A stretch of DNA of 64,000 nt, taken from the human T2T-CHM13v2.0 reference genome, Homo sapiens. A program made the position numbers and the translations under genes. This document shows, piece by piece, positions 12,801 through 55,500 of the stretch; positions within the stretch are counted from its first letter, which is position 1; every line of letters starts with the position of its first letter. The stretch lies in the NCBI RefSeq assembly GCF_009914755.1, contig NC_060933.1; one strand, given 5' to 3'. The notes beneath the pieces are model-generated. The model did not search any database, was not told the DNA's origin, and saw nothing but the letters and a program-made list of their open reading frames with translations.

Positions 12801-14814
12801 CCATTCCATTCAAGTTGAATCCATTCCGTTGCATTCCATTCCATTCGATTCCATTTGATTGCACTCGGGTTGATTCCATGGCATTGCATTCCATTCCATT
12901 CCATTCCATTCCATTCCATTCCATTCCATTCCATTCCTTTCCATTCCATTCCATTCCATTCCATTCGGATTCATTCTATTCAATTCCCTTACACTCCATT
13001 ACATTCCATTCCATTCGTGTAGTTTCCATTCCATTCCATTCCATTCCTCTCCATTCCATTGCACTCTGGTTGATTCCATTCCATTCCATTCCATTCCATT
13101 CCATTCCATTCCGGATGATTCCATTCCATAGAATTCCATTCCATTCCATTCCCCTGCACTTGGGTTGATTCCATTCCATTCCATTCCATTCCTTTCTGTT
13201 CCATTCCATTCCATTCCATTCCATTCTATTCGTGTTAATTCCGTTCCATTCTATTCCATTTCATTCCATTGAAATCGAGTTCATTCCATTCCATTCCTTT
13301 CCATTCCATTCCTTTCCATTCCATTACTAATGATTCCATTCCATTCCATTCCATTCCATTCCATTCCCCTGCAGTCGGGTTGATTCCATTCCATTCCATT
13401 TCATTCCATTCCATTCCATTCCATTCCATTCCGTTCCATTCCATTCCTTTCAATTCTATTTGGGTTAATTCCATTCCATTCCATTCCGTTCCGTTCCATT
13501 CCATTCCATTCCATTCCATTCCGTTCCGTTCCATTCCAATCCATTCCATTCTATTCGGGTTAATTCCATTCCATTCCATTCGATTGCCATCAAGTTGATT
13601 CCATTCCATTCCATTCCATTCCATTCCATTCCTTTCCATTCCATTACGGATGATTCCATTCCATTGCATTCCATTCCATTCCATTCTCCTGTACTCGGTT
13701 TGATTCCATTCCATTCCATTCCAATCCATGCCATTCCACTCCTGTTGATTCCATTCTTTCCATTCCATTCATGTTGAATCCATTCCATTGCATTCCATTC
13801 CATTCGATTCCATTCGATTGCACTCGGGTTGATTCCATTCCATTGCATTGCATTCCATTCAATTCCATTCCATTTCATTCTATTCCGTTCCATTCCATTC
13901 CATTACATTCGGATTGATTCTATTCAATTCCCTTACACTCCATTACATTCCATTCCATTCGGGTAGTTTCCATTCCATTCCATTCCATTCCTCTCCATTC
14001 CATTGCACTGGGGTTGATTCCATTCCATTGCATTCCATTCCATTCCATTCAATTCCATTCCGTTCCATTCCATTCCATTACATTCGGATTGATTCTATTC
14101 AACTCCCTTACTCTCCATTACATTCGATTCCATTCGGGTTGTTCCATTCCATTCCATTCCATTCCACTCCATTCCATTGCACTCGGGTTTATTCCATTCC
14201 ATTCCATTCCATTCCATTCCATTCCATTCCATTCCATTCCGGAATATTCCATTCCATTGCATTCCATTCCATTCCATTCCCCTGCACTCGCGTTGATTCC
14301 ATTCCATTCCATTCCATTCCATTCCATTCCATTGCATTCCTTTCCTTTCCATTCCATTCCATTCCATTCCAATCCATTCCATTCCGTTCCGTTCCGTTCC
14401 ATTCCATTCCATTCCATTCTATTCGGGTTAATTCCATTCCATTCCATTCGATTGCAAACGAGTTGATTCCATTCCATTCTATTCCATTCCATTCCATTCC
14501 TTTCCATTCCATTACGGATGATTCCATTCCATTGCATTCCATTCCATTCCATTCCCCTGTACTCGGGTTGATTCCATTCCATTCCATTTCACTTCTTGCC
14601 ATTCCACTCGTGTTGATTCCATTCTTTCCATTCCATTCAAGTTGAATCCATTCCATTGCATTCCATTCCATTCCATTCCCCTGCAGTCGGGTTGATTCCA
14701 TTCCATTCCATTCCATTCCATTCCATTCCATTCCGTTCCGTTCCGTTCCATTCCATTCCATTCCATTCTATTCAGTTAATTCCATTCCATTCCATTCCAT
14801 TCCATTCCAATCGA
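6829..14814 (+). repeat. 7,986-bp tandem duplication, copy 1
   Basis: Identical ORF translations recur at +7986 (6896/14882, 7569/15555, 9431/17417, 13848/21834) or +7991 (10605/18596, 12405/20396). Confidence 0.95.
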
Positions 14815-33050: not shown

Positions 33051-35549
33051 CCATTCCATTCCTTTCCATTCCATTACGGATGATTCCATTCCATTGCATT
33101 CCATTCCATTCCATTCCCCTGTACTCGGGTTGATTCCATTCCATTCCATTCCAATCCATGCCATTCCACTCGTGTTGATTCCATTCTTTCCATTCCATTC
33201 AAGTTGAATCCATTCCATTGCATTCCATTCCATTCCATTCCCCTGCAGTCGGGTTGATTCCGTTCCCTTCCATTCCATTCCATTCCATTCCATTCCGTTC
33301 CGTTCCGTTCCATTCCATTCCATTCCATTCTATTCGGGTTAATTCCATTCCATTCCATTGCATTCCATTCCAATCGAGTTGATTCCATTCCATTCCATTC
33401 CATTCCATTCCACTCCATTCCAGTCCTTTCCATTCCATTCCACTCGGGTTGATTCCAATGTATTCCTTTCCATTCCATTCCATTCCATTGCAATCGAGTT
33501 GATTCCATTGCTTTGCATTCCATTCCATTCCATTCCATTCCGGATGATTCCATTCCATTGCATTCCATTCCATTCCATTCCATTCCATTCCATTCCATTC
33601 CATTCCGTTCCATTCCATTCCATTACATTCGGATTGATTCTATTCAATTCCCTTACACTCCATTACTTTCCATTCCATTCGGGTAGTTTCCATTCCATTC
33701 CATTCCATTCCTCTCCATTCGATTGCACTCGGGTTGATTCCATTCCATTGCATTCCATTCCATTCCATTCAATTCCATTCCGTTCCATTCCATTCCATTA
33801 CATTTGGATTGATTCTATTCAACTCCCTTACTCTCCATTACATTCCATTCCATTCGGGTTGTTCCATTCCATTCCATTCCATTCCACTCCATTCCATTGC
33901 ACTCGGGTTTATTCCATTCCATTCCATTCCATTCCATTCCATTCCAATCCATTCCATTCCGTTCCGTTCCGTTCCATTCCATTCCATTCCATTCTATTTG
34001 GGTTAATTCCATTCCATTCCATTCGACTGCAATCGAGTTGATTCCATTCCATTCTATTCCATTCCATTCCATTCCATTCCATTCCTTTCCATTCCATTCC
34101 ATTACGGATGATTCCATTCCATTGCATTCCATTCAATTCCATTCCCCTTTACTTGGGTTGATTCCATTGCATTGCATTCCAATCCATGCCATTCCACTCG
34201 TGTTGATTCCATTCTTTCCATTCCATTCAAGTTGAATCCATTCCATTGCATTCCATTCCATTCCATTCCCCTGCAGTCGGGTTGATTCCATTCCATTCCA
34301 TTCCATTCCATTCCATTCCATTCCGTTCCGTTCCATTACATTCCATTCCATTCTATTCGGGTTAATTCCATTCCATTCCATTCCATTCCATTCCAATCGA
34401 GTTGATTCCATTCCATTCAATTCCATTCCATTCCACTCCATTCCAGTCCTTTCCATTCCATTCCACTCTGGTTGATTCCAATCTATTCCTTTCCATTCCA
34501 TTCCATTCCATTGCAATCGAGTTGATTCCATTGCTTTGCATTCCATTCCATTCCATTCCATTCCGGATGATTCCATTCCATTGCATTCCATTCCATTCCA
34601 TTCCCCTGCACTCGGGTTGATTCCATTCCATTCCACTCCATTCCGTTCCATTCCATTCCATTGTATTCGGGTTAATTCCATTCCATTCCATTCCATTCCA
34701 TTCCATTACAATCGAGTTGATTCCATTCCATTCCATTCCATTCCAGTCCTTTCCATTCCATTCCACTCGGGTTGATTCCATTCTATTAGTTTCCATTCCA
34801 TTCCATTCCCTTCCATTCCACTCTGGTTGATACCATTCCTTTCCATTCCACTCGAATACATTCCCTCCTATTCAACTCGGAACGATTCCATTCCATTCCA
34901 TTCCATTCCATTCCATTCCATTCCATTCCATTTCGTTCCATTCCATTCTATTCCGTATCATTCCATTCCATTCCATTCCATTCCATTCCATTCCATTCCA
35001 TTCCATTCCATTGTACTCAGGTTGATTCAATTCCATTGCATTCCATTCCATTCCATTCCATTCCATTCCATTCCATTCCATTCCGTTCTATTCCATTCCA
35101 TTACATTCGGATTGATTCTATTCAACTCCCTTACTCTCCATTACATTCCATTCCATTCGGGTTGTTCCATTCCATTCCATTCCATTCCACTCCATTCCAT
35201 TGCACTCGGGTGTATTCCATTCCATTCCATTCCATTCCATTCCCTTCCTTTCCATTCCATTACGGATGATTCCATTCCATTGCATTCCATTCCATTCCAT
35301 TCCCCTGTACTCGGGTTGATTCCATTGCAATCCATGCCATTCCACTCGTGTTGATTCCATTCTTTCCATTCCATTCAAGTTGAATCCATTCCATTGCATT
35401 CCATTCCATTCCATTGCCCTGCATTCGGGTTGATTCCATTCCATTCCATTCCATTCCATTCCATTCCATTCCATTCCGTTCCTTTCCGTTCCATTCCATT
35501 CCATTCCATTCTATTCGGGTTAATTCCATTCCATTCCATTCCATTCCAT

Positions 35550-38300
35550 TCCAATCGAGTTGATTCCATTCCATTCCATTCCATTCCATTCCACTCCATT
35601 CCAGTCCTTTCCATTCCATTCCACTCGTGTTGATTCCAATGTATTCCTTTCCATTCCATTCCATTCCATTGCAATCGAGTTGATTCCATTGCTTTGCATT
35701 CCATTCCATTCCATTCCATTCCGGATGATTCCATTCCATTGCATTGCATTCCATTCCATTCCCCTGCACTCGGGTTGATACCATTCCATTCCACTCCATT
35801 CCGTTCCATTCCATTCCATTCCATTGTATTCGGGTTAATTCCATTCCATTCCATTCCATTCCATTCCATTCCATTCCATTCCATTACAATCGAGTTTATT
35901 CCATTCCATTCCATTCCATTCCAGTCCTTTCCATTCCATTCCACTCGGGTTGATTCCATTCTATTAGTTTCCATTCCATTCCATTCCCTTCCATTCCACT
36001 CTGGTTGATTCCATTCCTTTCCATTCCACTCGAATACATTCCCTCCTATTCCACTCGGAACGATTCCATTCCATTCCATTCCATTCCATTCCATTCCAAT
36101 CCATTCCATTCCATTTCGTTCCATTCCATTCCATTCCGTATCATTCCATTCCATTCCATTCCATTCCATTCCATTCCATTCCATTCCATTGTACTCGGGT
36201 TGATTCCATTCCATTGCATTCCATTCCATTCCATTCCATTCCATTCCATTCCATTCCGTTGCATTCCATTCCATTACATTCGGATTGATTCTATTCAACT
36301 CCCTTACTCTCCATTACATTCCATTCCATTCGGGTTGTTCCATTCCATTCCATTCCATTCCACTCCATTCCATTGCACTCGGGTTGATTCCATTCCTTTC
36401 CATTCCATTCCATTCCATTCCGGATGATTACTTTCCATTGCATTCCGTTCCATTACATTCCCCTGCACTCGCGTTGATTCCATTCCATTCCATTCCATTC
36501 CATTCAATTCCATTCCATTACAATTCGTTCCATTCTATTCTATTCCGTACCATTCCATTCCATTCCATGCCATTCCATTCCATTCCACTCCATTCCATTC
36601 CGTTCCATTCCGTTCCTTTCCATTCCATTCCATTCTATTCGGATTAATTCCATTCCATTCCATTCCATTCCATTCCATTCTATTCCACTCCATTGCAATC
36701 GAGTTGAATCCATTGCATTTCATTCCATTCCATTCCATTCCATTCCATTCCATTCCATTCCATTCCGGAAGTTTCCATTCCATTGCATTCCATTCCATTC
36801 CATTCCCCTGCACTCGCGTTGATTCCATTCCATTCCATTCCATTCCATTCCGTTCCCTTCCATTCCATTCCATTCCATTCCGTTCCGTTCCATTCCATTC
36901 CATTCCATTCTATTCGGGTTAATTCCATTCCATTCCATTCGATTGCAATCGAGTTGATTCCATTCCATTCCATTCCATTCCATTCCATTCCATTCCATTC
37001 CATTCCTTTCCATTCCATTACGGATGATTCCATTCCATTGCATTCCATTCCATTCCATTCCCCTGTACTCGGGTTGATTGCGTTCCATTCCATTCCAATC
37101 CATGCCATTCCACTCGTGTTGATTCCATTCTTTCCATTCCATTCAAGTTGAATCCATTCCATTACATTCCATTCAATTTGATTCCATTCGATTGCACTCG
37201 GGTTGATTCCATTCCATTACATTCCATTCCATTCAATTCCATTCCATTCCATTCCATTCCAATCCATTCCATTCCATTCCATTACATTACATTCGGATTG
37301 ATTCTATTCAATTCCCTTACAGTGCATTACATTCCATTCCATTCGGGTAGTTTCCATTCCATTCCATTCCATTCCTCTCCATTCCATTGCACTCGGGTTG
37401 ATTCCATTCCATTGCATTCCATTCCATTCCTTTCAATTCCATTCCGTTCCATTCAATTCCATTACATTCGGATTGATTCTATTCAACTCCCTTACTCTCC
37501 ATTCCATTCCATTCCATTCAGGATGTTCCATTCCATTCCATTCCATTCCACTCCATTCCATTGCACTCGGGTTGATTCCATTCCATTCCATTCCATTCCA
37601 TTCCATTCCATTCCAATTGAGTTGATTCCATTCCATTCCATTCCATTCCATTCCAGTCCTTTCCATTCCATTCCACTCGGGTTGATTCCATTCTATTAGT
37701 TTCCATTCCATTCCATTGCCTTCCATTCCACTCTGGTTGATTCCATTCCTTTCCATTCCACTCGAATACATTCCCTCCTATTCCACTCGGAACGATTCCA
37801 TTCTATTCCATTCCATTCCATTCCATTCCATTCCATTCCATTCCATTTCGTTCCATTCCATTCTATTCCGTATCATTCCATTCCATTCCATTCCATTCCA
37901 TTCCATTCCATTCCATTCCATTCCATTCCATTGTACTCGGGTTGATTCAATTCCATTGCATTCCATTCCATTCCATTCCATTCAATTCCATTCCATTCCA
38001 TTCCATTCCATTCCGTTCCATTCCATTCCATTCCATTCCATTCCGTTCCATTCCATTACATTCGGATTGATTCTTTTCAACTTCCTTTCTCTCCATTACA
38101 TTCCATTCCATTCGGATTGTTCCATTCCATTCCATTCCATTCCACTCCATTCCATTGCACTCGGGTTGATTCCATTCCATTCCATTGCATTCCATTCCGG
38201 ATGATTCCATTCCATTGCATTCCGTTCCATTACATTCCCCTGCACTCGGGTTGATTCCATTCCATTCCATTCCATTCCATTCCATTCCATTCCATTCCAT
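35550..38300 (+). repeat. ~2.7-kb segment, copy 2
   Basis: See copy 1. Also shares ccggaagtttcc, caattgagttg and gattcttttcaacttcc. Confidence 0.88.
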
Positions 38301-40050
38301 TCCATTCCATTCCCCTGCACTCGCGTTGATTCCATTCCATTCCATTCCATTCCATTCCATTCCATTCCTTTCCATTCCAGTCCTTTCCATTCCATTCCAC
38401 TCGGGTTGATTCCATTCTATTAGTTTCCATTCCATTCCATTCCCTTCCATTCCACTCTGGTTGATTCCATTCCTTTCCATTCCACTGGAATACATTCCCT
38501 CCTATTCCACTCGGAACGATTCCATTCCATTGCATTCCATTCAATTCCATTCCATTCCATTCCATTCCATTCCATTGCATTTCGTTCCATTCCATTCTAT
38601 TCCGTATCATTCCATTCCATTCCATTCCACTCGTGTTGATTTCATTCCTTTCCATTCCATTCGGTTTGAAGGCATTCCATTCCATTCCATTCCATTCCAT
38701 TCCATTCCAGTCCATTCCATTCCATTGTACTCGGGTTGATTCCATTCCATTGCATTCCATTCCATTCCATTCCATTCCATTCCGTTGCATTCCATTCCAT
38801 TTCATTCGGATTGATTCTATTCAACTCCCTTACTCTCCATTACATTCCATTCCATTCGGGTTGTTCCATTCCATTCCGTTCCATTCCACTCCATTCCATT
38901 GCACTTGGATTGATTCCATTCCATTCCATTCCATTCCATTCCATTCCATTCCATTCCATTCCGGATGATTCCATTCCATTGCATTCCGTTCCATTACATT
39001 CCCCTGCACTCGGGTTGATTCCATTCCATTCCATTCCATTCCATTCGATTCCATTCCATTCCAATTCTTTCCATTCCATTCTATTCCGTACCATTCCATT
39101 CCATTGCATACAATTCCATTCCATTCCATTCCACTCCGTTCCGTTCCGTTCCGTTCCATTCCGTTCCATTCCATTCCATTCCATTCTATTCGGTTTAATT
39201 CCATTCCATTCCATTCCATTCCATTCCATTCCATTCCATTCTATTCCATTCCATTGCAATCGATTTGAATCCATTGCATTCCATTCCATTCCATTCCATT
39301 CCATTCCGGAAGATTCCATTCCATTGCATTCCATTCCATTCCATTCCATTCCATTCCATTCCATTCCATTCCATTGTACTCGGGTTGATTCCATTCCATT
39401 GCATTCCATTCAATTCCATTCCATTCCATTCCATTCCATTCCATTCCATTCCATTCCGGATGATTCCATTCCATTGCATTCCGTTCCATTACATTCCCCT
39501 GCACTCGGGTTGATTCCATTCCATTCCATTCCATTCCATTCCATTCGATTCCATTCCATTCCCCTGCACTCGCGTTGATTCCATTCCATTCCATTCCATT
39601 CCATTCCATTCCATTCCATTCCTTTCCATTCCAGTCTTTTCCATTCCATTCCACTCGGGTTGATTCCATTCTATTAGTTTCCATTCCATTTCATTCCCTT
39701 CCATTCCACTCTGGTTGATTCCATTCCTTTCCATTCCACTCGAATACATTCCCTCCTAATCCACTCGGAACGATTCCATTCCATTCCATTCCATTCCATT
39801 CCATTCCATTTCGTTCCATTCCATTCTATTCCATATCATTCCATTCCATTCCATTCCATTCTATTCCATTCCATTCCATTCCATTCCACTCGTGTTGATT
39901 CCATTCCTTTCCATTCCATTCGGTTTGAAGGCATTCCATTCCATTCCATTCCATTCCATTCCATTCCATTCCATTGTACTCGGGTTGATTCCATTCCATT
40001 GCATTGCCTTCCATTCCATTCTATTACATTCCGTTCCATTCCATTCCATT
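38190..40050 (+). repeat. ~0.6-kb cassette repeated at ~1.26-kb spacing (38190-38800 and 39450-40050)
   Basis: cggtttgaaggc at 38662 and 39921. Same module order (cggatg, cccctgcactcggg, cccctgcactcgcg, ccagtc, ctattagttt, ggaacg). Confidence 0.7.
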
Positions 40051-43019
40051 CCGTTCCATTCCATTCCATTATATTCGGATTGATTCTATTCAATTCCCTT
40101 ACACTCCATTACATTCCATTCCATTCGGGTAGTTTCCATTCCACTCCATTAAATTCCTCTCCATTCCATTGCACTCGGGTTGATTCCATTACATTGCATT
40201 CCATTCCATTCCATTCAATTCCATTCCGTTCCATTCCATTCCATTACATTCGGATTGATTCTATTCAACTCCCTTACTCTCCATTACATTCAATTCCTTT
40301 CGAGTTGTTCCATTCCATTCCATTCCATTCCACTCCATTCCATTGCACTCGGGTTGATTCCATTCCATTCCATTCCATTCCATTCCGGAAGATTCCATTC
40401 CATTGCATTCCATTCCATTCCATTCCCCTGCACTCGCGTTGATCCCATTCCATTCCATTCCATTCCATTCCATTCCATTCCATTCCTTTCCTTTCCATTC
40501 CTTTCCATTCCATTCCATTCCATTCCAATCCATTGCATTCCGTTCCGTTCCGTTCCATTCAATTCCATTCCATTCTATTCGCGTTAATTCCATTCCATTC
40601 CATTCGATTGCAATCGAGTTGATTCCATTCCATTCTATTCCATTCCATTCCATTCCTTTCCATTCCATTACGGATGATTCCATTCCATTGCATTCCATTC
40701 CATTCCATTCTCCTGTACTCGGGTTGATTCCATTCCATTCCATTCCAATCCATGCCATTCCACTCGTGTTGATTCCATTCTTTCCATTCCATTCAAGTTG
40801 AATCCATTCCATTGCATTCCATTCCATTCCATTACCCTGCAGTCGGGTTGATTCCATTCCATTCCATTCCATTACATTCCATTCCATTGCATTCCGTTCC
40901 GTTCCATTCCATTCCATTCCATTCTATTCGGGTTAATTCCATTCCATTCCATTCCATTCCAATCGAGTTGATTCCATTCCATTCCATTCCATTCCACTCC
41001 ATTCCACTCCTTTCCATTCCACTCCACTCGGGTTGATTCCAATGTATTCCTTTCCATTCCATTCCATTCCATTGCAATCGAGTTGATTCCATTGCTTTGC
41101 ATTCCATTCCATTCCATTCCATTCCCTTCCTTTCCGTTCCATTCCATTCCATTCCATACCATTGCATTCCATTCCATTCCGTTCCATTCCGTTCCATTCC
41201 ATTCAATTCCATTCTATTCGGGTTAATCCCATTCCATTCCATTCCATTCCATTCTATTCCATTCCATTGCAACCTAGTTGAATCCATTGCATTTCATTCC
41301 ATTCCATTGCATTCCATTCCGGAAGATTCCATTCCATTGCATTCCATTCCATGCCATTCCCCTGCACTCGCGTTGATTCCATTCCATTCCATTCCATTCC
41401 ATTCCATTCCATTCCATTCCATTCCGTTAGGTTCTGTTCCATTCCATTCCATTCCGTTCCGTTCCGTTCCGTTCCGTTCCGTTCCATTCCATTCCATTCC
41501 ATTCCATTCCATTCCGTTCCGTTCCATTCCATTCCATTCCATTCCATTCCATTCCATTCCTTTCCATTCCATTACGGATGATTCCATTCCATTGCATTCC
41601 ATTCCATTCCATTCCCCTGTACTCGGGTTGATTCCATTCGATTGCATTCCAATCCATGCCCTTCCACTCTTGTTGATTCCATTCTTTCCATTCCATTCAA
41701 GTTGAATCCATTCCATTGCATTCCATTCCATTCGATTCCATTCGATTGCACTCGGGTTGATTCCATTCCATTGCATTCCATTCCATTCCATTCCATTCCA
41801 TTCCATTCCGTTCCTTTCCATTCTATTACATTCGGATTGATTCTATTCAATTCCCTTACACTCCATTAAGTTCCATTCCATTCGGGTAGTTTCCATTCCA
41901 TTCCATTCCATTCCTCTCCATTCCATTGCACTAGGGTTGATTCCATTCCATTGCATTCCATTCCATTCCATTCAATTCCATTCCGTTCCACTCCATTCCA
42001 TTACATTCGGATTGATTCTATTCAACTCCCTTTGTCCCCATTACATTTCATTCCATTCGGGTTGTTCCATTCCATTCCATTCCATTCCACTCCATTCCAT
42101 TGCACTGGGGTTTATTCCATTCCATTCTATTCCATTCCATTCCATTCCATTCCATTCCGGAAGATTCCATTCCATTGCATTCCATTCCATTCCATTCCCC
42201 TGCACTCGCGTTGATTCCATTCCATTCCATTCTATTCCATTCCATTCCTTTCGTTTCCATTCCATTCCATTCCATTCCATTCCATTCCGTTCCGTTCCGT
42301 TCCGTTCCGTTCCATTCCATTCCATTCCATTCTATTCGGGTTAATTCCATTCCATTCCATTCGATTGCAATCGAGTCGATTCCATTCCATTCCATTCCAT
42401 TCCATTCCATTCCATTCCTTTCCATTCCATTACGGATGATTCCATTCCATTGCATTCCATTCCATTCCATTCCCCTGTACTCGGGTTGATTCCATTCCAT
42501 TCCATTCCGTTCCATTCCATTCCATTCCATTCCATTCCATTCCATTCCATTCCATTCCATGCCATTCCACTCGGGTTGATTCCATTTGTTTCCATTCCAT
42601 TCGAGTTGAATCCATTCCATTCCATTCTATTCCAGTCGATTCCATTCCATTGCTCACGTGTTCATTCCATTCCATTCCATTCCATTCCATTCCATTTCGT
42701 TCCATTCCATTGTCTTCCGTAGTATTCCATTCCATTCCATTCCACTCCATTCCATGCCATTCCACTCGGGTTTATTCCATTCCTTTCCATTCCATTCGGG
42801 TTGAATTCATTCCATTCCATTCCATTCAATTCCATTACATTGCACTCGGGTTGATTCCATTCCATTCCATTCCATTTCAATCCATTCCCTTCCATTCCAT
42901 TTCATTCCATTCCATTCCATTCCATTCCATCCCATTTCATTCCATTCCATTCCATGCCATTCCACTCGGGTTGATTCCATTCCTTTCCATTCCATTCTAG
43001 TTGAACCCATTCCATTCCA

Positions 43020-43066
43020 TTCCATTCCATTCCATTCCATTGCACACGGAATGGAATGGAATGGAA
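43020..43066. other. Strand-switch (inversion) junction with perfect 19-bp inverted repeat and 9-nt spacer
   Basis: ttccattccattccattcc (43020-43038) + attgcacac + ggaatggaatggaatggaa (43048-43066). The left word cattgcacacgg(gttcattcc) is truncated at GG 43048-43049, which is also the start of the first GGAAT. Confidence 0.95.
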
Positions 43067-44979
43067 ACAACCCGAATGGAATGGAATGTAATGGAGTGTA
43101 AGGGAATTGAATACAATCAATCCGAATGTAATGGAATGGAATGGAACGGAATGAAATGGAATGGCATAGAATGGAATGGAATCAACCCGAGCGCAATGGA
43201 ATGGAATGGAATGGAATGGAATGGATTCAACCCGAATGGAATGGAAAGGAATGGAATAAACCCGAGTGAAATGACATGGAAGGGAATGGAATGGAATGGA
43301 ATGGTACGGAGTAGAATGGAATGGAACGAAATGGAATGGAATGGAATGGAATGGAATGGAATGGACCCGTGAGCAACGGAATGGAATGGAATGGAATGGA
43401 ATGGAAGGGAATGGAATGGGTTCAATTCGAATGGAATGGAAAGGAATGGAATCAACCGGAGTGCAATGGCATGGAATGGAATGGAATGGAATGGAATGGA
43501 ATGGAATGGAATGGATTCAACCCGAATGGAATGGAAAGGAATGGAATAAACCCGAGTGGAATGGCATGGAATGGAGTGGAATGGAATGGAATGGAATGGA
43601 ATGGAATGGAATGGAATGGAATGGAATTAACCCTAATAGAATGGAATGGAATGGAATGGAATGGAATGGAAGGGAATGGAATGGAATGGAATGGAATGGA
43701 ATGGAATTAACACGAATAGAATGGAATGGAATGCAATGGAATGGAATGAAATGGAATCAACTCGATTTCAATGGAATGGAATGGAATGGAATGGAATGGA
43801 AGGGAATGGAATGAAATTAACCCGAATAGAATGGAATGGAATGGAATGGAATGGAATGGAATGGAATAGAATGGAATCCAACCGAGTGCAGTGGAATGGA
43901 ATGGAATGGAATGCAATGGAATGGAATCATACGGAATGGAATGGAATGGAATGGAATGAAATGGAATGGAATGCAATGGAATGGAATGGAATAAACCCGA
44001 GTGGAATGGCATGGAATGGAGTGGAATGGAATTGAATGGAAGGGAATGGTACGGAATAGAATGGAATGGAACGAAATGGAATGGAATGGAATGGAATGGA
44101 ATGGAATGAACCCGTGAGCAATTGAATGGAATCGAATGGAATGGAATGCAATGGAATGGATTCAACTAGAATGGAATGGAAAGGAGTGGAATCAACCCGA
44201 GTGGAATGGCATGGCATGGAATGGAATGCAATGGAATGGAAAGGAATGGTATGGAATAGAATGGAATGGAACGAAATGGAATGGAATGGAATGGAATGCA
44301 ATGGAATGGAATGGAATACAATGGAATCCACCCGATTGCAGAGGAATGGAATGGAATGGAATGGAATGGAATGGAATGGAATGGATTCAACCCGAATGGA
44401 ATGGAAAGGAATGGAATCAACCCGAGTGGATTGGCATGGAATGGAATGGAATGGAATGGAATGGTAGGGAATAGAATGGAATGGAACGAAATGGAATGGA
44501 ATGGAATGGAATGGAATTGAATGGAATGGAATCAACCTGAGTGCAATGGAATGGAGTGGAAGGGAATGTAATGGAACGGAAACAACACGAATGGAATGGA
44601 ATGTAATGGAGTGTAACGGAATTGAATACAATCAATCCGAATGTAATGGAATGGAATGGAACGGAATGGAATGGAATGCAATGGAATGGAAAAGAATGGA
44701 ATGGAATGAAATGGAATGGCAGGGAATGGAATGGAATCAACCCGAGTGCAATGGAATGGAATAGAATGGAATGGAATGGAATGGAATGGATTCAACCCGA
44801 ATGGAAGGGAAAGGAATGGAATAAACCCGAGTGGAATGGCATGGAATGGAATGGAATGCAATGGAATGGTACGGAATAGAATGGAATGGAACGAAATGGA
44901 ATGGAATGGAATGGAATGGAATGGAATGGAAAGGAATGGAATCAACCTGAGTGCAATGGAATGGAATGGAATGGAATGG

Positions 44980-45495
44980 AATGGAATGGAATGGAAACAA
45001 CCCGAATGGAATGGAATGGAATGGAGTGTAAGGAATTGAATACAATCAATCCGAATGTAATGGAATGGAATGGAACAGAATGGAATGGAATGGAATACAG
45101 TGGAATGGATTCAAACCTAGTGCAATGGAATGGAATGGAATGGAATGGAATGGAATGGAATGGATTGGATTCAAAACAAATGGAATGGAAAGCAATAGAA
45201 TCAACCCGAGTGGAATGGCATGGAATGGAATGGAATCGAATGGAATGGAATGGAAACAACCCGAATGGAATGGAATGGAATGGAGTGTAAGGAATTGAAT
45301 ACAATCAATCCGAATGTAATGGAATGGAATGGAACAGAATGGAATGGAATGGAATACAGTGGAATGGATTCAAACCTAGTGCAATGGAATGGAATGGAAT
45401 GGAATGGAATGGAATGGAATGGATTGGATTCAAAACAAATGGAATGGAAAGCAATAGAATCAACCCGAGCGGAATGGCATGGAATGGAATGGAAT
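44980..45495 (-). repeat. 259-bp tandem duplication (2 copies)
   Basis: ggaaacaacccg at 44993 and 45252; ORFs 45065/45324. Both copies share private variants gtgtaaggaattg, ggaacagaa, atacagtgg, tcaaacctag and tcaaaacaaat. Confidence 0.92.
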
Positions 45496-46534
45496 GGAAT
45501 GGAATGGAATGGTACGGAATAGAATGCAATGGAACGAAATGGAATGGAATGGAATGGAATGGAACGGAATGGAATGGAATCATCTCGATTGCAATGGAAT
45601 GTAATGGAATGCAATGGAATTAACGCGAATAGAATGGAACGGAATGGAATGGAATGGGATGGAATGGAATCAATCCGAGTGCAGGGGAATGGAATGGAAT
45701 GGAATGCAATGGAATGGAATGTAATGGAATGGAATGCAATGGAATGGAATGGAATGGAATGGAATGCAATGGAATCAACTCGATTGCAATGGGATGGAAT
45801 GGAATGGAATGGAATGGAATGGAAGGGAATGGAATGGAATGGAATTAACCTGAACAGAATGGAATGGAATGGAATGCAACGGAATGGAATGGAATGGAAT
45901 GGAATGGAATGGAATCAACCCGATTGCAATGGAATGGAGTGGAATGGAATGGAATGGAATGGAAACAACCCGAATGGAATGGAATGTAATGGAGTGTAAG
46001 GGAATTGAATAGAATCAATACGAATGTAATGGAATGGAATGGAACGGAATGGAATGCAATGGAATGGAATGCAATGCAATGGAATGGGATCAACCCGAGT
46101 GTAATGGAATGGAATCGAAAGGAATGGAATGGAATGGAATGGTTTCAACCCGAATGGAATGGAAAGGAATGGAATCATCCCGAGTGGAATGGAATGGAAT
46201 GGAATGGAATGGAATGGAATGGAATGAACCCGTGTGCAATGTAATGGAATCGTATGGAATGGAATGGAATGGAATGGAATGGATTCAAGTCGAATGGAAT
46301 GGAAAGGAATGGAATCAACCCGAGTGGAATGGCATGGAATGGAATGGAATGAAATGGAATGGAATGGAATGGAATGGTACGGAATAGAACGGAATGAAAC
46401 GAAATGGAATGGAATGGAATGTAATGGAAAGGAATGGAATGGAATCAACCCGAGTGCAGGGGAATGGAATGGAATGGAAGGCAATGGAATGCAATCATCC
46501 GGAATTGAATGAAATGGAATGGAATGGAATGGAA

Positions 46535-49500
46535 TCAACTCGATTGCAATGGAATGTAATGGAATGGAATGGAATGGAATTAACCCTAATAGAATGGAAT
46601 GGAATGGAATGGAAGGGAATGGAATGGAATGGAATGGAATGGAATTAACCGGAATAGAATGCAATGGAATGGAATGGAATGGAATGGAATGGAATGGAAT
46701 GAAATGGAATCAACTCGATTTCAATGGAATGGAATGGAATGCAATGGAATGGAATGGAATGGAATGGAATGAAATTAACCCGAATAGAATGGAATGGAAT
46801 GGAATGGAATGGAATGGAATGGAATGGAATGGAATAGAGTGGAATGGAATGGAATGGAATAGAATGGAATCCACCCGAGTGCAAGGGAATGGAATGGAAT
46901 GGAATGGAATGCAATGGAATGGAATCATACGGAATGGAATGGAATGGAATGGAATGGAATCCATCCGATTGCAATGGAATGGAGTGGAATGGAATGGAAT
47001 GGAATGGAAACAACCCGAATGGAATGGAATGTAATGGAGAGTAAGGGAATTGAATAGAATCAATACGAATGTAATGGAATGGAATGGAACGGAATGGAAT
47101 GCAATGGAATGGGATCAACCCGAGTGAAATGGAATGGAATCGAAAGGAATGGAATGGAATGGAATGGTTTCAACCCGAATGGAATGGAAAGGAATGGAAT
47201 CAACCCGAGTGGAATGGAATGGAATGGAATGGAATGGAATGGAATGGAATGGGTTCAACTCGAATGGAATGGAAAGGAATGGAATCAACCCGAGTGGAAT
47301 GGCATGGAATGGAATGGAATGGAATGGAATGGAATGGAATGGAAGGGAATGGAATGGAATGGAATTAACCTGAACAGAATGGAAGGGAATGGAATGGAAC
47401 GGAACGGAATGGAATGGAATGGAATGGAATGGAATGGAATGCAATTGAATGGGATCAACCCGAGTACAGGGGAATGGAATGCAATGGAATGCAATGGAAT
47501 GGAATCATCCGGAATGGAATGGAATGGAATGGAATGCAATGGAATGGAATCAATCAACCCGAGTGCAATAGAATGCAGTGGAATGGAATGGAATGGTATG
47601 GAAACTACCCGAATGGAATAGAATGTAATGGAGTGTAAGGGAATTAAAAAGAATCAATCCGAATGTAATGGAATTGAATGGAACGGAATGGAATGGAATG
47701 GAATGGAATGGAATGGAATGGAATGGAATGGAATTAACCCGAATAGAATGGAATGGAATGGAATGGAAGTAAATGGAATGGAATGTAATGAACCCGAGTG
47801 CAGGGGAATGGAATGGAATGGAATGCAATGGAATGGAGTCATCCGGAATGGAACAGAAAGGAATGGAATGGAATCAACCCGTGTGCAATGGAATGGAAAG
47901 GAATGGAATGGAATGGAATGGAATGAAATGCAATGGAATGGATTCAACCCGAATGGAATGGAAAGGAAGGGAATCAACCCAAGTGGAATGGCATGGAATG
48001 GAATGGAATGGAATGGAATGGAATGGAATGGTACCGAATAGAATGGAATGGAACGAAATGGAATAGAATGGAATGGAATGGAATGGAATCAACCCGAGTG
48101 CAATGGAATGGAGTGGAATGGAAGGGAATGACATGGAAAGAACCCGAATGGAATGGAATGAAATGGAGTGTAAGGGAATTGAATACAATCAATCCGAATG
48201 TAATGGAATGGAATGGAACGGAATGGAATGGAATGGAATGGAATGGAATGGAATGCAGTGCAATGGAATCAAACCTAGTGCAATGGAATGGAATGGAATG
48301 GAATGGAATGGAATGGATTCAACCCAAATGGAATGGAAAGCAATGGAATCAACCCGAGTGGAATGGCATGGAATGGAATGGAATGGAATGGAATGGAATG
48401 GATTGGAATGGAATGGAATGGAATGGTACGGAATAGAATGGAAGGGAACGAAATGGAATGGAATGGAATGGAATGGAACGGAATGGAATGGAATCAACTC
48501 GATTGCAATGGAATGTAATGGAATGGAATGGAATGCAATTATCGCGAATAGAATGGAATGGAATGGAACGGAATGGAATGGAATGGAATGGAATGGAATC
48601 GAATGGAATCAACCTGAGTGCAGGGGAATGGAATGGAATGGAATGCAATGGAATGTAATGGAATGGAATGCAATGGAATTAACTCGATTGCAATGGGATG
48701 GAATGGAATGGAATGGAAGGGAAAGGAATAGAAAGGAATTAACCTGAACAGAATGGAATGGAATGGAATGGAACGGAATGGAATGGAATGGGTTCAACTC
48801 GAATGGAATGGAAAGGAATGGAATCAACACGAGTGGAATGGCATGGAATGGAATGGAATGGAATGGAATGGAATGGAATGGAAAGGAATGGAAAGGAATG
48901 GAATGGAATGAAATGTAATGGAATGGAATGGAATGGAATCAACCCGAGTGCAGTGTAATGGAATCGAATGGAATGGAATGGAATGGAATGGATTCAACAC
49001 GAATGGAATGGAAAGGAATGGAATAAACCCGCGTGGAATGGCATGGAATGGAGTGGAATGGAATGAAATGTAAAGGAATGGAATGGAATGGAATCAACCC
49101 GAGTGCAATGTAATGGAATCGAATGGAATGGAATGGAATGGAATGGATTCAACCCGAATGGAATGGAAAGGAATGGAATAAACCCGAGTGGAATGGCATG
49201 GAATGGAATGGAATGGAATGGAATGGAATGGAATGGTACGGAATAGAATGGAATGGAACGAAATGGAATGGAATGGAATGGAATGGAACGGAATGGAATG
49301 GAATCAACTCGATTGCAATGGAATGTGATGGAATGGAATGGAATGCAATTAACGCGAATAGAATGGAATGGAATGGAATGGAACGGAATGGAATGGAATG
49401 GAATGGAATGGAATCGAATGGAATCAACCTGAGTGCAGGGGAATGGAATGGAATGGAATGCAATGGAATGTAATGGAATGGAATGCAATGGAATGAACTC

Positions 49501-52500
49501 GATTGCAATGGGATGGAATGGAATGGAATGGAAGGGAAAGGAATAGAATGGAATTAACCTGAACAGAATGGAATGGAATGGAATGGAACGGAATGGAATG
49601 GAACGGAATGGAATGGAATGGAATGGAATGAACCCGTGTGCAATGAAATGGAATGGAATGGAATGGAATGGAATGGAATGGAAACATCCCGAGTGCATGG
49701 TAATGGAATGGAATGAAAGGCAATGGAATGGAATCATCCGGAATGGATTGGAATGGAATGGAATGGAATGGAATGGAATCAACTCGATTGCAATGGAATG
49801 GAATGGAATGGAATGGAATGGAATGGAATGGAATTAACCCGAATAGAATCGAATGGAATGGAATGGAATGGAATGGAATGGAATGGAAGGGAATGGAATG
49901 TAATGGAATGGAATGGAATTAACCCGAATAGAATGGAATGGAACGTAAAGGAAGGGAATGGAATGTAATCAACTCGAGTGCAGGGGAAAGCAAAGCAATG
50001 GAATGAAATGGAATGGAGTCATACGGAATGGAAGGGAATGGAATGGAATCAACCAGAGTGCAATGGAATGGAGTGGAATGGAATGGAATAGAATGGAAAC
50101 AACACGAATGGAATAGAATGTATTGGAGTGTAAGGGAATTGAATAGAATCAATAGAATCAATCAATCAATCCGAATGTAATTGAATGGAACGGAAAGGAA
50201 TGGAAAGGAATGGAATGGAATGGAATGGAATGGAATGGAATGGAATGAAATGGAATGGCATGGAATGGAATGGAATCAACCCGAGTTCAATGGAATTGAA
50301 TGGAATGGAATGGAATGGAACGGAATGGAATGGAATGGAATCAACTCGATTGCAATGGAATGGAAAGGAATGGAATGGAATGGAATGGAATGGAATGGAA
50401 TGGAATGGAATGGAATTAACCCTACTAGAATGGAATGGAATGGAATGGAATGGAATAGAATGGAATGGAAGGGAATGGAATGGAATGGAATGGAATGGAA
50501 TTAACCCGAATAGAATGGAATGGAATGGAATGGAATGGAATGGAATGGAATGGAATCAACTCGATTTGAATGGAATGGAATGAAATGGAATGGAATGCAA
50601 TGGAAGGGAATGGAATGGAATGGAATGATATTAACCCGAATAGAATGGAATGGAATGGAATGGAATGGAATGGAATGGAATGGAATAGAATGGAATCCAC
50701 CCGAGTGCAGGGGAATGGAATGGAATGGAATGCAATGGAATGGAATCATACGGAATGGAATGGAATGGAATGGAATGCAATGGAATGGAATGGAATCAAC
50801 CCGATTGCAATGGAATGGAGTGGAATGGAATGGAATGGAATGGAAACAACTCGAATGGAATGGAATGTAATGGAGAGTAAGGGAATTGAATAGAATCAAT
50901 ACGAATGTAATGGAATGGAATGGAACGGAATGGAATGCAATGGAATGGAATGGAATGCAATGGAATGGGATCAACCCGAGTGAAATGGAATGGAATCGAA
51001 AGGAATGGAATGGAATGGAATGGTTTCAACCCGAATGGAATGGAAAGGAATGGAATCAACCCGAGTGGAATGGAATGGAATGGAATGGAATGGGTTCAAC
51101 TCGAATGGAATGGAAAGGAATGGAATCAACCCGAGTGGAATGGCATGGAATGGAATGGAATGGAATGGAATGGAATGGAAGGGAATGGAATGGAATGGAA
51201 TTAACCTGAACAGAATGGAAGGGAATGGAATGGAACGGAACGGAATGGAATGGAATGGAATGGAATGGAATGGAATGCAATGGAATGGGATCAACCCGAG
51301 TACAGGGGAATGGAATGCAAGGGAATGCAATGGAATGGAATCATCCGGAATGGAATGGAATGGAATGGCATGCAATGGAATGGAATCAATCAACCCGACT
51401 GCAATAGAATGCAGTGGAATGGAATGGAATGGTATGGAAACTACCCGAATGGAATAGAATGTAATGGAGTGTAAGGGAATTAAAAAGAATCAATCCGAAT
51501 GTAATGGAATTGAATGGAACGGAATGGAATGGAATGGAATGGAATGGAATGGAATGGAATGGAATTAACCCGAATAGAATGGAATGGAATGGAATGGAAT
51601 GGAATGGAAGTAAATGGAATGGAATGTAATGAACCCGAGTGCAGGGGAATGGAATGGAATGGAATTCAATGGAATGGAGTCATCCGGAATGGAACAGAAA
51701 GGAATGGAATGGAATCAACCCGTGTGCAATGGAATGGAAAGGAATGGAATGGAATGGAATGGAATGGAATGGAATGGAATGGATTCAACCCGAATGGAAT
51801 GGAAAGGAAGGGAATCAACCCAAGTGGAATGGCATGGAATGGAATGGAATGGAATGGAATGGAATGGAATGGTTCCGAATAGAATGGAATGGAACGAAAT
51901 GGAATAGAATGGAATGGAATGGAATGGAATCAACCCGAGTGCAATGGAATGGAGTGGAATGGAAGGGAATGACATGGAAACAACCCGAATGGAATGGAAT
52001 GAAATGGAGTGTAAGGGAATTGAATACAATCAATCCGAATGTAATGGAATGGAATGGAACGGAATGGAATGGAATGGAATGGAATGGAATGCAGTGGAAT
52101 GGAATCAAACCTAGTGCAATGGAATGGAATGGAATGGAATGGAATGGAATGGATTCAACCCAAATGGAATGGAAAGCAATGGAATCAACCCGAGTGGAAT
52201 GGCATCGAATGGAATGGAATGGAATGGAATGGAATGGATTGGAATGGAATGGAATGGAATGGTACGGAATAGAATGGAATGGAACGAAATGGAATGGAAT
52301 GGAATGGAATGGAACGGAATGGAATGGAATCAACTCGATTGCAATGGAATGTAATGGAATGGAATGGAATGCTATTATCGCGAATAGAATGGAATGGAAT
52401 GGAATGGAACGGAATGGAATGGAATGGAATGGAATGGAATCGAATGGAATCAACCTGAGTGCAGGGGAATGGAATGGAATGGAATGCAATGGAATGTAAT

Positions 52501-55500
52501 GGAATGGAATGCAATGGAATCAACTCGATTGCAATGGGATGGAATGGAATGGAATGGAAGGGAAAGGAATAGAATGGAATTAACCTGAACAGAATGGAAT
52601 GGAATGGAATGGAACGGAATGGAATGGAACGGAATGGAATGGAATGGAATGGAATGAACCCGTGTGCAATGGAATGGAATGGAATGGAATGGAATGGAAT
52701 GGAATGGGTTCAACTCGAATGGAATGGAAAGGAATGGAATCAACACGAGTGGAATGGCATGGAATGGAATGGAATGGAATGGAATGGAATGGAAAGGAAT
52801 GGAATGGAATGAAATGTAATGGAATGGAATGGAATGGAATCAACCCGAGTGCAGTGTAATGGAATCGAATGGAATGGAATGGAATGGAATGGATTCAACA
52901 CGAATGGAATGGAAAGGAATGGAATAAACCCGCGTGGAATGGCATGGAATGGAGTGGAATGGAATGAAAAGTAAAGGAATGGAATGGAATGGAATCAACC
53001 AGAGTGCAAAGTAATGGAATCGAATGGAATGGAATGGAATGGAATGGATTCAACCCGAATGGAATGGAAAGGAATGGAATAAAACCGAGTGGAATGGCAT
53101 GGAATGGAATGGAATGGAATGGAATGGAATGGAATGGAATGGAATGGAATGGAATGGTACGGAATAGAATGGAATGGAACGAAATGGAATGGAATGGAAT
53201 GGAATGGAACGGAATGGAATGGAATCAACTCGATTGCAATGGAATGTGATGGAATGGAATGGAATGCAATTAACGCGAATAGAATGGAATGGAATGGAAT
53301 GGAACGGAATGGAATGGAATGGAATGGAATGGAATCGAATGGAATCAACCTGAGTGCAGGGGAATGGAATGGAATGGAATGCAATGGAATGTAATGGAAT
53401 GGAATGCAATGGAATGAACTCGATTGCAATGGGATGGAATGGAATGGAATGGAAGGGAAAGGAATAGAATGGAATTAACCTGAACAGAATGGAATGGAAT
53501 GGAATGGAACGGAATGGAATGGAACGGAATGGAATGGAATGGAATGGAATGAACCCGTGTGCAATGAAATGGAATGGAATGGAATGGAATGGAATGGAAT
53601 GGAAACAACCCGAGTGCATGGTAATGGAATGGAATGAAAGGCAATGGAATGGAATCATCCGGAATGGATTGGAATGGAATGGAATGGAATGGAATGGAAT
53701 CAACTCGATTGCAATGGAATGGAATGGAATGGAATGGAATGGAATGGAATGGAATGGAATTAACCCGAATAGAATCGAATGGAATGGAATGGAATGGAAT
53801 GGAATGGAATGGAATGGAAGGGAATGGAATGTAATGGAATGGAATGGAATTAACCCGAATAGAATGGAATGGAACGTAAAGGAAGGGAATGGAATGTAAT
53901 CAACTCGAGTGCAGGGGAAAGCAATGCAATGGAATGAAATGGAATGGAGTCATACGGAATGGAAGGGAATGGAATGGAATCAACCAGAGTGCAATGGAAT
54001 GGAGTGGAATGGAATGGAATAGAATGGAAACAACACGAATGGAATAGAATGTATTGGAGTGTAAGGGAATTGAATAGAATCAATAGAATCAATCAATCAA
54101 TCCGAATGTAATTGAATGGAACGGAAAGGAATGGAATGCAATGGAATGGAATGGAATGGAATGGAATGGAATGAAATGGAATGGCATGGAATGGAATGGA
54201 ATCAACCCGAGTTCAATGGAATTGAATGGAATGGAATGGAATGGAACGGAATGGAATGGAATGGAATCAACTCGATTGCAATGGAATGGAAAGGAATGGA
54301 ATGGAATGGAATGGAATGGAATGGAATGGAATTAACCCTACTAGAATGGAATGGAATGGAATGGAATGGAATGGAATAGAATGGAATGGAAGGGAATGGA
54401 ATGGAATGGAATGGAATGGAATTAACCCGAATAGAATGGAATGGAATGGAATGGAATGGAATGGAATGGAATGGAATGGAATCAACTCGATTTGAATGGA
54501 ATGGAATGAAATGGAATGGAATGCAATGGAAGGGAATGGAATGGAATGGAATGATATTAACCCGAATAGAATGGAATGGAATGGAATGGAATGGAATGGA
54601 ATGGAATGGAATAGAATGGAATCCACCCGAGTGCAGGGGAATGGAATGGAATGGAATGCAATGGAATGGAATCATACGGAATGGAATGGAATGGAATGGA
54701 ATGCAATGGAATGGAATGGAATCAACCCGATTGCAATGGAATGGAGTGGAATGGAATGGAATGGAATGGAAACAACTCGAATGGAATGGAATGTAATGGA
54801 GAGTAAGGGAATTGAATAGAATCAATACGAATGTAATGGAATGGAATGGAACGGAATGGAATGCAATGGAATGGAATGGAATGCAATGGAATGGGATCAA
54901 CCCGAGTGAAATGGAATGGAATCGAAAGGAATGGAATGGAATGGAATGGTTTCAACCCGAATGGAATGGAAAGGAATGGAATCAACCCGAGTGGAATGGA
55001 ATGGAATGGAATGGAATGGGTTCAACTCGAATGGAATGGAAAGGAATGGAATCAACCCGAGTGGAATGGCATGGAATGGAATGGAATGGAATGGAATGGA
55101 ATGGAATGGAAGGGAATGGAATGGAATGGAATTAACCTGAACAGAATGGAAGGGAATGGAATGGAACGGAACGGAATGGAATGGAATGGAATGGAATGGA
55201 ATGGAATGCAATGGAATGGGATCAACCCGAGTACAGGGGAATGGAATGCAATGGAATGCAATGGAATGGAATCATCCGGAATGGAATGGAATGGAATGGC
55301 ATGCAATGGAATGGAATCAATCAACCCGACTGCAATAGAATGCAGTGGAATGGAATGGAATGGTATGGAAACTACCCGAATGGAATAGAATGTAATGGAG
55401 TGTAAGGGAATTAAAAAGAATCAATCCGAATGTAATGGAATTGAATGGAACGGAATGGAATGGAATGGAATGGAATGGAATGGAATGGAATGGAATTAAC

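What the first reader, a model, noticed from the sequence alone, without database searches (positions are those of the whole stretch)
43020..43066. Base-resolved satellite strand switch joined by GG microhomology, creating a very large degenerate palindrome
Seen: the CATTC arm ends mid-word (cattgcacacGG, elsewhere continued as ...gttcattcc, e.g. at 4131-4150) and continues directly as GGaatggaatggaatggaaacaacccg. There is no inserted foreign sequence and the overlap is 2 nt. The junction forms a perfect 19-bp stem with a 9-nt loop, and because both arms are the same pentamer, imperfect pairing could extend for >20 kb. Known: satellite arrays are mostly strand-uniform, but the human chr9 HSat3 array is reported to be unusually inversion-rich. 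Inference: microhomology-mediated joining or a replication template switch; a possible cruciform or fragile site.
Basis: partly seen in the sequence, partly recalled or inferred. Interest (0 to 1): 0.8.

Follow-up and report, generated by a model that had tools for sequence, protein, structure and literature searches.

The report
Amplified strand-switch junction in chr9 HSat3
The strand flip in this human chromosome 9 satellite is real, but it is one of at least 85 copies of a single old junction carried along as the satellite block expanded, not a unique event or a true giant palindrome.

Summary
The window has one strand switch. A (CATTC)n arm (1-43049) ends inside a CCATTGCACACGG|GTT motif and joins a (GGAAT)n arm (43050-64000). 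There is no filler DNA, the overlap is 2 nt (GG), and a perfect 19-bp stem with a 9-nt loop can form.

The interpretation mostly fails.
- The 36-mer across the junction occurs 85 times in the genome (75 exact, 10 with one mismatch). All copies lie on chr9 at 52.3-76.4 Mb, in both orientations, and their flanks are homologous.
- The nearest relative, 10.58 Mb away, matches at 4999 of 5000 bases. It belongs to the published CHM13 9qh+ multi-megabase duplication.
- Three other junction families (53, 20 and 11 copies) behave the same way. Four families give 169 of at least 208 switches in the array.
- The arms are not mirror images. Complementarity is only the satellite background of about 70% and loses register after about 1 kb.
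- A 2-nt overlap arises by chance in 14% of random joins.
- The junction centre is unchanged in 75 of 85 copies, so there is no sign of palindrome-driven instability.

Strand switches in the chr9 HSat3 array are already published. The only apparently new point is that they fall into a few founder-junction families.

The parts
1..43049 (+). CATTC-orientation HSat3 arm. It is the right-hand 43 kb of a 49.5-kb C-oriented block that starts at junction K2, 6.4 kb left of the window (chr9:65,837,567).
   Evidence: strand counts, TRF; strand map of the 264-kb surroundings.
43037..43049 (+). Truncated motif CCATTGCACACGG, the last word of the C arm. Elsewhere it continues as GTTCATTCC or GTTGATTCC.
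43048..43049 (+). GG shared by both parental sequences (2-nt overlap); this is the breakpoint.
   Evidence: parental paralogs; chance of 2 nt or more = 0.14.
43037..43072 (+). Junction 36-mer K1. It has 85 copies in the genome, all on chr9 at 52.34-76.36 Mb: 49 forward and 36 reverse.
   Evidence: 75 exact; 85 with up to 3 mismatches; reversed-pattern control 0.
43020..43066 (+). Hairpin-capable core: 19-bp perfect stem (43020-43038 with 43048-43066) and 9-nt loop (43039-43047).
43050..64000 (+). GGAAT-orientation HSat3 arm. It continues beyond the window to at least chr9:65,978,000. From about +50 to +180 it is 0.5-0.8 kb shorter than three other K1 copies.
4131..4150 (+). Intact example of the motif that is cut at the junction.

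Best explanation
The junction (K1) is an old inversion-type breakpoint inside the 9q12 HSat3 array. It is inherited, not made in place.

Origin (inferred): one founder event joined a break inside an AAC-CCGTGTGCAATGG-type motif, read on the C strand, to a break inside a short (GGAAT)n run on the opposite strand. The join was blunt or nearly blunt, with a 2-nt overlap and no filler.

Spread (shown): the junction then travelled as a passive passenger. Large blocks of the array that contained it were duplicated many times. The latest case is the multi-megabase tandem duplication of CHM13 (9qh+), which produced this window's copy or its twin at chr9:55.31 Mb.

Both orientations (inferred): blocks were probably flipped by exchange between oppositely oriented arms, which reverses a junction without creating a new junction sequence.

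Structure (shown): the two arms are merely the same satellite on opposite strands, not mirror copies. Beyond the trivial 19-bp hairpin there is no long palindrome and no evidence of a structural or fragile-site role.
For: Copy number: one search finds 75 exact copies. One search finds 85 with up to 3 mismatches (none with 2 or 3), all on contig C9, with a reversed-pattern control of 0.

Shared flanks: 16 of 17 other sampled copies, spread over 52.3-76.4 Mb and in both orientations, share the -90..+70 flanks. 14 of 17 are 98.2-99.5% identical to this copy over -330..+70, apart from pentamer-multiple indels.

Recent duplication: the copy at 55,311,645 matches this one at 4999 of 5000 bases. All 34 junction labels at 54.78-60.69 Mb recur in the same order and orientation at 65.36-71.35 Mb, shifted by 10.575-10.656 Mb. 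All 23 labels at 52.34-54.51 Mb recur at 61.08-63.34 Mb. [quoted passage not shown]

Other families: K2 (G->C, 53 copies), K5 (G->C, 20) and K3 (C->G, 11) are also confined to chr9. The four families give 169 sites. 39 same-type neighbour pairs imply at least 208 switches in total. This fits the 'over 200 inversion breakpoints' of the Altemose et al. preprint.

No mirror symmetry. At a second K1 locus the arms mirror each other only in the 1.4 kb next to K5.
Against: No reads or other human assemblies could be examined, so long-read support and polymorphism of this copy are untested here.

The reciprocal breakpoint of the founder event was not identified. K2 is not a clean partner: its left parent continues as ATTGCAATGG, not CCGTGTG. 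K5 is only a possible partner.

One pair of copies (65,720,225 and its 10.58-Mb counterpart 55,144,764) carries the same single mismatch. The left flank of 65,720,225, the only one of the pair that was read, differs from about -35 outward. This needs a later exchange close to the junction.

In four other copies, about 120 bp of the left arm (4-122) mirrors the right arm at +141..+275. This could be a relic of a fold-back origin. The same subunit recurs about 3 times per 2.5 kb, so it is within chance.

The tool states that counts are lower bounds.
Confidence: 0.85

Rival explanations
1. The founder event was a fold-back inverted duplication. A replication template switch, or a resected end priming on its own sister or complement, created a true palindrome with a spacer of about 140 bp. 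The mirror arms were later eroded by exchanges within the array.
For: In L001, L002, L005 and L007, the reverse complement of left-arm positions 4-122 matches right-arm positions 141-275 collinearly. The right arm holds an intact CCCGAGCGCAATGG motif at about +128, where the left arm's cut motif would map. K1 sits between K5+ and K5- with nearly equal arms of 8,409 and 8,209 bp at 70.86 Mb, and by position also at 60.21 Mb.
Against: The mirrored stretch is only about 130 bp and the same subunit recurs several times per 2.5 kb (row 'ours'). The last 300 bp of the left arm aligns better at 48.4 and 52.3 kb of the window than beside the junction: scores 223 and 208 against 166, median 146. The inner 7 kb of the K5-K1-K5 arms share no common diagonal. 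There is no mirror diagonal over 49 x 91 kb.
Confidence: 0.2
2. The same junction formed repeatedly and independently at a hotspot, for example by a preferred template switch between the CCGTGTG motif and a GGAAT run. On this view the 85 copies are 85 events.
For: Other C->G families also join at CGG (CATTAC-GG-AATGG and CATTC-GG-AATGG), which hints at a preferred join.
Against: The copies share flank-specific variants on both sides, for example TCTAGTTGAACCC on the left and GTAATGGAGTGTAAGGGAATTGAATACAATCAATCCG on the right. Their order, spacing and orientation are syntenic over megabases. Single-mismatch variants recur in pairs at the duplication shift.
Confidence: 0.03
3. Assembly or sequencing artefact, from fold-back chimeric reads or a mis-join in a hard satellite.
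For: The chr9 HSat3 array was one of the hardest regions of the assembly and needed two traversals of a graph loop (Nurk preprint). This copy and its twin differ at only 1 of 5000 bases. Nothing tested here independently confirms that both copies of the 9qh+ duplication exist.
Against: The junction is present at 85 loci whose flanks differ by 1-3% and by indels, which a read-level artefact cannot produce. Strand switches in this array are reported across hundreds of independent assemblies.
Confidence: 0.03
4. The junction is a functional or hazardous non-B DNA element, a cruciform or fragile site, because of its palindromic nature.
For: A 19-bp perfect stem with a 9-nt loop, dG -21.6 kcal/mol.
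Against: Pairing beyond 19 bp is about 70% and out of register after 1 kb. The centre is unchanged in 75 of 85 copies and no copy has a central deletion within the 36-mer. Recalled knowledge: unstable human palindromes have near-perfect arms of hundreds of bp.
Confidence: 0.05

Closest known systems
Strand switches ('mosaic inversion structure') of the large chr9 HSat3 (HSat3B5) array in T2T-CHM13 and pangenome assemblies
   Same: Same object. Passages of the Altemose et al. preprint report over 200 inversion breakpoints in the chr9 HSat3B5 array and the beta satellite arrays. A 2026 pangenome preprint reports about 129 orientation switches per haplotype on chr9. A 2026 Asian pangenome preprint reports hundreds of switches whose number correlates with array length, r = 0.90.
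   Different: The passages I read give counts and strand tracks, not junction sequences. Here the switches resolve into a few sequence families (K1 85, K2 53, K5 20, K3 11). This suggests that most are inherited copies, not stochastic by-products of expansion as the preprint suggests. Supplements of these preprints were not seen and may hold more.
CHM13 9qh+ multi-megabase tandem HSat3 duplication (Nurk et al.)
   Same: This window lies in the distal copy. Its twin is 10.575 Mb proximal and matches at 4999 of 5000 bases around the junction.
   Different: That duplication explains only the last doubling. Junction copies outside the two large duplications differ by 1-3%, so earlier rounds of amplification are needed.
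Fold-back inverted duplications and palindromic amplicons (breakage-fusion-bridge type)
   Same: Head-to-head join of the same sequence class with a short overlap and no filler.
   Different: The defining mirror-image arms are absent.
Cruciform-forming palindromic AT-rich repeats (PATRRs) and other fragile palindromes (recalled, no call)
   Same: A hairpin-capable centre.
   Different: Only 19 bp pair perfectly, the arms are about 70% complementary, and the centre is stable across 85 copies.

Membership tests
HSat3 pentameric satellite of the 9q12 array | Tandem CATTC/GGAAT pentamers interspersed with CAACCCGAGT-like motifs (the motif name is recalled) | tested here: met
   TRF period 5 with consensus CATTC/GGAAT and 73-74% matches; the motifs are visible.
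HSat3 pentameric satellite of the 9q12 array | Location inside the chr9 array; subfamily HSat3B5 | tested here: inconclusive
   Location is given by the hub note and (C9:65,844,001-65,908,000). The subfamily was not typed here and is taken from the Altemose preprint.
Known chr9 HSat3 strand switch (inversion breakpoint) | Abrupt change of satellite strand with the same satellite on both sides | tested here: met
Known chr9 HSat3 strand switch (inversion breakpoint) | One of about 200 such switches confined to this array | tested here: met
   169 sites in four families, at least 208 switches implied, all on C9.
True palindrome / fold-back inverted duplication | Arms are reverse complements of each other in register, well above array background | tested here: not met
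   for this copy; for a second copy.
Microhomology-mediated end joining product | Microhomology at the join beyond chance | tested here: not met
   2 nt, with P(2 nt or more) = 0.14 in 200,000 random joins. By contrast K2 has 5 nt (ACTCG), P = 0.001.
Microhomology-mediated end joining product | No templated or untemplated insertion | tested here: met
   Both parental sequences are reconstructed from paralogs and the join is seamless.
Fragile / cruciform-extruding palindrome | Long near-perfect inverted repeat with a short spacer, and instability of the centre among copies | tested here: not met
   The perfect stem is only 19 bp. 75 of 85 centres are identical and 10 have one substitution. Extrusion itself cannot be tested with these tools.

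The most novel reading that the evidence does not exclude
Nearly all of the roughly 200 strand switches of the human 9q12 HSat3 block descend from a handful of founder junctions. K1 alone accounts for about four in five of the C->G switches. The junctions spread as passengers of block duplications and were flipped by exchange between oppositely oriented arms. Switch number would then scale with array length because junctions are copied, not because they keep arising. Junction k-mers would become lineage markers for reconstructing how 9qh heteromorphisms grow and shrink.
Probability: 0.6. Interest if true: 0.45.

Novelty: already known. Interest (0 to 1): 0.3.

Why it matters
The chr9 HSat3 block is the largest satellite array in the human genome. 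It varies many-fold in size between people and its internal history is hard to read. The strand flip reported here is a published feature of that array.

The base-level view adds a practical point. A few short junction sequences (36-mers) mark most of the flips, so they can be counted in reads or assemblies. That would let one trace which blocks were duplicated, in what order, and in whom. It also corrects the idea that each flip is a fresh rearrangement or a structural hazard. The junction has been copied at least 85 times without change at its centre.

Tried and rejected
1. A whole-window self-BLAST timed out. I replaced it with rare k-mer diagonals.

2. K1 and K2 as clean reciprocal ends of one 49.5-kb inversion: rejected. 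The motif join looked right at first (CAAC + CCGTGTG). But 9 of 10 paralogs of the K2 left flank show GCAAAGCAATGGAATCAAC-TCG continuing as ATTGCAATGG or a close variant.

3. K1 and K5 as reciprocal ends: inconclusive. One uninverted paralog has a b'-like end followed by an R'-like start at 92%. The L'->a' comparison gives 72-79% against a control of 68-78%.

4. K1 as the axis of an 8.3-kb palindrome bounded by K5+ and K5-: rejected. Only the distal 1.4 kb is mirrored.

5. A clean-pentamer pattern for G->C switches found only 5 sites. Most G->C junctions lie in degenerate sequence and had to be found by reading fetched DNA.

Smaller samples were used instead, so flanks of only 18 of the 84 other K1 copies were read, most of them over 0.8-3 kb.

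8. A look-up of the journal version of Altemose et al. under an id I recalled was not held.

9. Literature searches for base-level descriptions of these junctions found none: 'HSat3'+'inversion'+'chr9', 'HSat3B5', 'HSat3'+'strand switch', 'HSat3'+'microhomology', 'mosaic inversion'+'satellite'. Only listings and the passages named were read, and supplements were not seen.

Full report
THE OBSERVATION

The window is chr9:65,844,001-65,908,000 of T2T-CHM13 (hub note; confirmed). It contains exactly one strand switch. CATTC words dominate every 500-bp bin up to 43,000 and GAATG words dominate from there on. TRF reports a CATTC array at 7-43041 and a GGAAT array at 43048-63997, with 73-74% matches.

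At the switch the sequence reads ...CCATTCCATTGCACAC-GG-AATGGAATGGAATGGAAACAACCCG.... The word CCATTGCACACGG is normally continued by GTTCATTCC or GTTGATTCC. This is seen at 4131-4150 and in 25 further intact occurrences in the 264 kb around the window. So the C arm does end mid-motif.

Twelve of 12 uninverted paralogs of the right-arm start read ...GGAAT|GGAATGGAATGGAATGGAAAC, or in one case ...GGAGT|. The base before the GG is therefore C in one parent and T in the other, and the base after it is G in one and A in the other. The overlap is exactly 2 nt and nothing is inserted.

The perfect stem is 43020-43038 with 43048-43066 (19 bp), and the loop is 43039-43047. The fold energy is -21.6 kcal/mol, z = -6.6.

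NOT A LARGE PALINDROME

Complementarity around the junction is 200-213 of 300 in every 5-nt register, with no preferred axis. In the best register it is 0.69-0.79 for 1 kb and then collapses to 0.31 and 0.09 as non-pentamer indels break the phase. That level equals the within-array similarity reported by TRF.

The reverse complement of the last 300, 600 or 1200 bases of the left arm aligns no better next to the junction than at other places in the right arm:
- 300 bases: 166, against a top score of 223 and a median of 146.
- 600 bases: at most 321, against 358 and 264.
- 1200 bases: at most 537, against 735 and a median of 549.

The full 49.5-kb C block was compared with 91 kb of the G arm. 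Only 1112 of 19841 rare shared 28-mers lie within 3 kb of the mirror diagonal, and no diagonal stands out. The two arms also have different higher-order periods: 7,986/7,991 bp on the left and about 3.84-3.93 kb on the right.

NOT A UNIQUE EVENT

The 36-mer spanning the junction (K1) occurs 75 times exactly and 85 times with up to three mismatches. Ten copies have one mismatch and none have two or three. There are 49 forward and 36 reverse copies. All lie on chr9 between 52.34 and 76.36 Mb, and the reversed-pattern control found none.

I read the flanks of 18 other copies, spread over 52.3-76.4 Mb and in both orientations. One of them, the twin at 55,311,645, is treated under the recent doubling below. 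Of the other 17:
- Sixteen share the -90..+70 flanks with this copy, including distinctive non-pentamer words on both sides.
- Fourteen are 98.2-99.5% identical over -330..+70, apart from indels that are multiples of five.
- Two fall to 87.5% and 92.2% further out.
- One (65,720,225) has a different left flank from about -35.

Compared with three other copies, this copy is 0.5-0.8 kb shorter in the right arm between about +50 and +180.

THE RECENT DOUBLING

The copy at 55,311,645 matches this one at 4999 of 5000 bases.

I placed the 85 K1 sites on a map together with three further junction families:
- All 34 junction labels at 54.78-60.69 Mb recur in the same order and orientation at 65.36-71.35 Mb, shifted by 10.575-10.656 Mb.
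- All 23 labels at 52.34-54.51 Mb recur at 61.08-63.34 Mb.

[quoted passage not shown] This window lies in its distal copy.

OTHER JUNCTION FAMILIES

I fetched 130 kb to the left and 70 kb to the right of the window. The local strand map runs as follows:
- C orientation up to a K1 copy at 65,720,237.
- G orientation for 117 kb.
- A G->C switch (K2) at 65,837,567.
- C orientation for 49.5 kb.
- This K1.
- G orientation for at least 91 kb.

K2 reads GCAATGGAATCAAC-TCG-GGTTGATTCC and has 53 copies, all on chr9. Its parental sequences share 5 nt (ACTCG). The chance of 5 nt or more is 0.001 in random joins, against 0.14 for the 2 nt of K1.

A second G->C family (K5) has 20 copies. A second C->G family (K3, CATTAC-GG-AATGG) has 11 copies. 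A third C->G junction (CATTC-GG-AATGG) was seen once among the rows that one search listed; that list was cut off.

The four counted families give 169 sites. 129 of 168 neighbour pairs alternate in type as they must. The 39 that do not alternate imply at least 39 unseen junctions, so at least 208 switches in all. This agrees with the 'over 200 inversion breakpoints' of the Altemose et al. preprint. If switches alternate, there are about 104 C->G switches, and K1 would account for about four in five of them.

MECHANISM

Shown: the junction is inherited. Block duplication, including one very recent multi-megabase duplication, multiplies it.

Also seen is a local 9.5-kb tandem duplication carrying K5 and K1. 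It is present in only one of the two 9qh+ copies, at 70,845,487-70,863,432, against a single unit at 60,202,484-60,210,881.

Inferred: a single founder join by end joining. The two orientations are most simply explained by exchange between oppositely oriented arms, which flips a junction without making a new junction sequence. This fits the small number of families.

The founder's reciprocal breakpoint is unresolved. A fold-back origin cannot be excluded. A 120-bp stretch is mirrored at an offset of 141 bp in four copies, but this is within what the recurring subunit structure gives by chance. The K5+ / K1+ / K5- arrangement with arms of 8,409 and 8,209 bp is mirrored only in the 1.4 kb next to K5.

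COMPARISON WITH THE LITERATURE

- Strand switches in this array are published.
- Two 2026 preprints report about 129 switches per haplotype, and hundreds of switches whose number correlates with array length at r = 0.90. The second reads them as stochastic by-products of expansion.
- In the passages I read, and in five searches, I found no junction sequences or junction families. Supplements were not seen.
- The family structure found here offers a simpler reason for the correlation: junctions are copied together with the blocks.

VERDICT

The feature is real and accurately described, but it belongs to a known phenomenon. It is one of at least 85 copies of one old junction. It is not a giant palindrome. 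Its 2-nt overlap is uninformative about mechanism, and its centre shows no instability. Interest is modest, and rests on using junction k-mers as lineage markers for the 9q12 block.

NOT TESTED

- Read support for this copy.
- Other human or ape genomes.
- Cruciform extrusion.
- The full set of switches across the array.

Noticed in passing
outside the window: chr9:65,837,554-65,837,589 (6.4 kb left of window start; locus L021): G->C junction K2, GCAATGGAATCAAC-TCG-GGTTGATTCC, with a 9-bp stem and 4-nt loop. The two parents share 5 nt (ACTCG), which is beyond chance (P about 0.001). It has 53 copies, all on chr9 at 51.07-75.68 Mb.
   Followed up: yes
window 9445-25375 (left arm) and 47000-52000 (right arm): The two arms carry different higher-order repeats. 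The left arm has periods of 7,986/7,991 bp. The right arm has periods of about 3,836-3,931 and 7,767-7,852 bp.
   Followed up: partly
window 45001-45500: A local 259-bp direct duplication: 164-186 shared 24-mers at offsets of +259 and -259.
   Followed up: no
window 43100-43230 compared with loci L001, L005, L007: This K1 copy and its 9qh+ twin lack 485-805 bp that three other K1 copies carry shortly after the junction.
   Followed up: partly
chr9:70,845,487-70,871,669 (L030, L041) against 60,202,484-60,219,113: A 9.5-kb tandem duplication carrying K5+ and K1+ is present in only one of the two copies of the CHM13 multi-megabase duplication. It therefore arose, or was lost in the other copy, after that duplication. 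It is a junction-bearing module caught in the act of being copied.
   Followed up: partly
chr9:52,339,073/52,351,745; 61,030,709/61,043,381; 61,082,275/61,094,947: A module in which K1+ is followed by K2- at exactly 12,672 bp occurs three times. Two of these are 51.6 kb apart in tandem.
   Followed up: no
chr9:65,720,225 (L009) and 55,144,764: A pair of K1 copies with the same single mismatch. In the one that was read (65,720,225), the left flank differs from the family from about -35 outward, which suggests a later exchange inside the (CATTC)n run next to the junction.
   Followed up: partly
chr7:58,746,831-58,746,870: The only clean-pentamer G->C strand switch found outside chr9: GGAATGGAATTGATTCCATTCC, nearly a perfect palindrome.
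   Followed up: no
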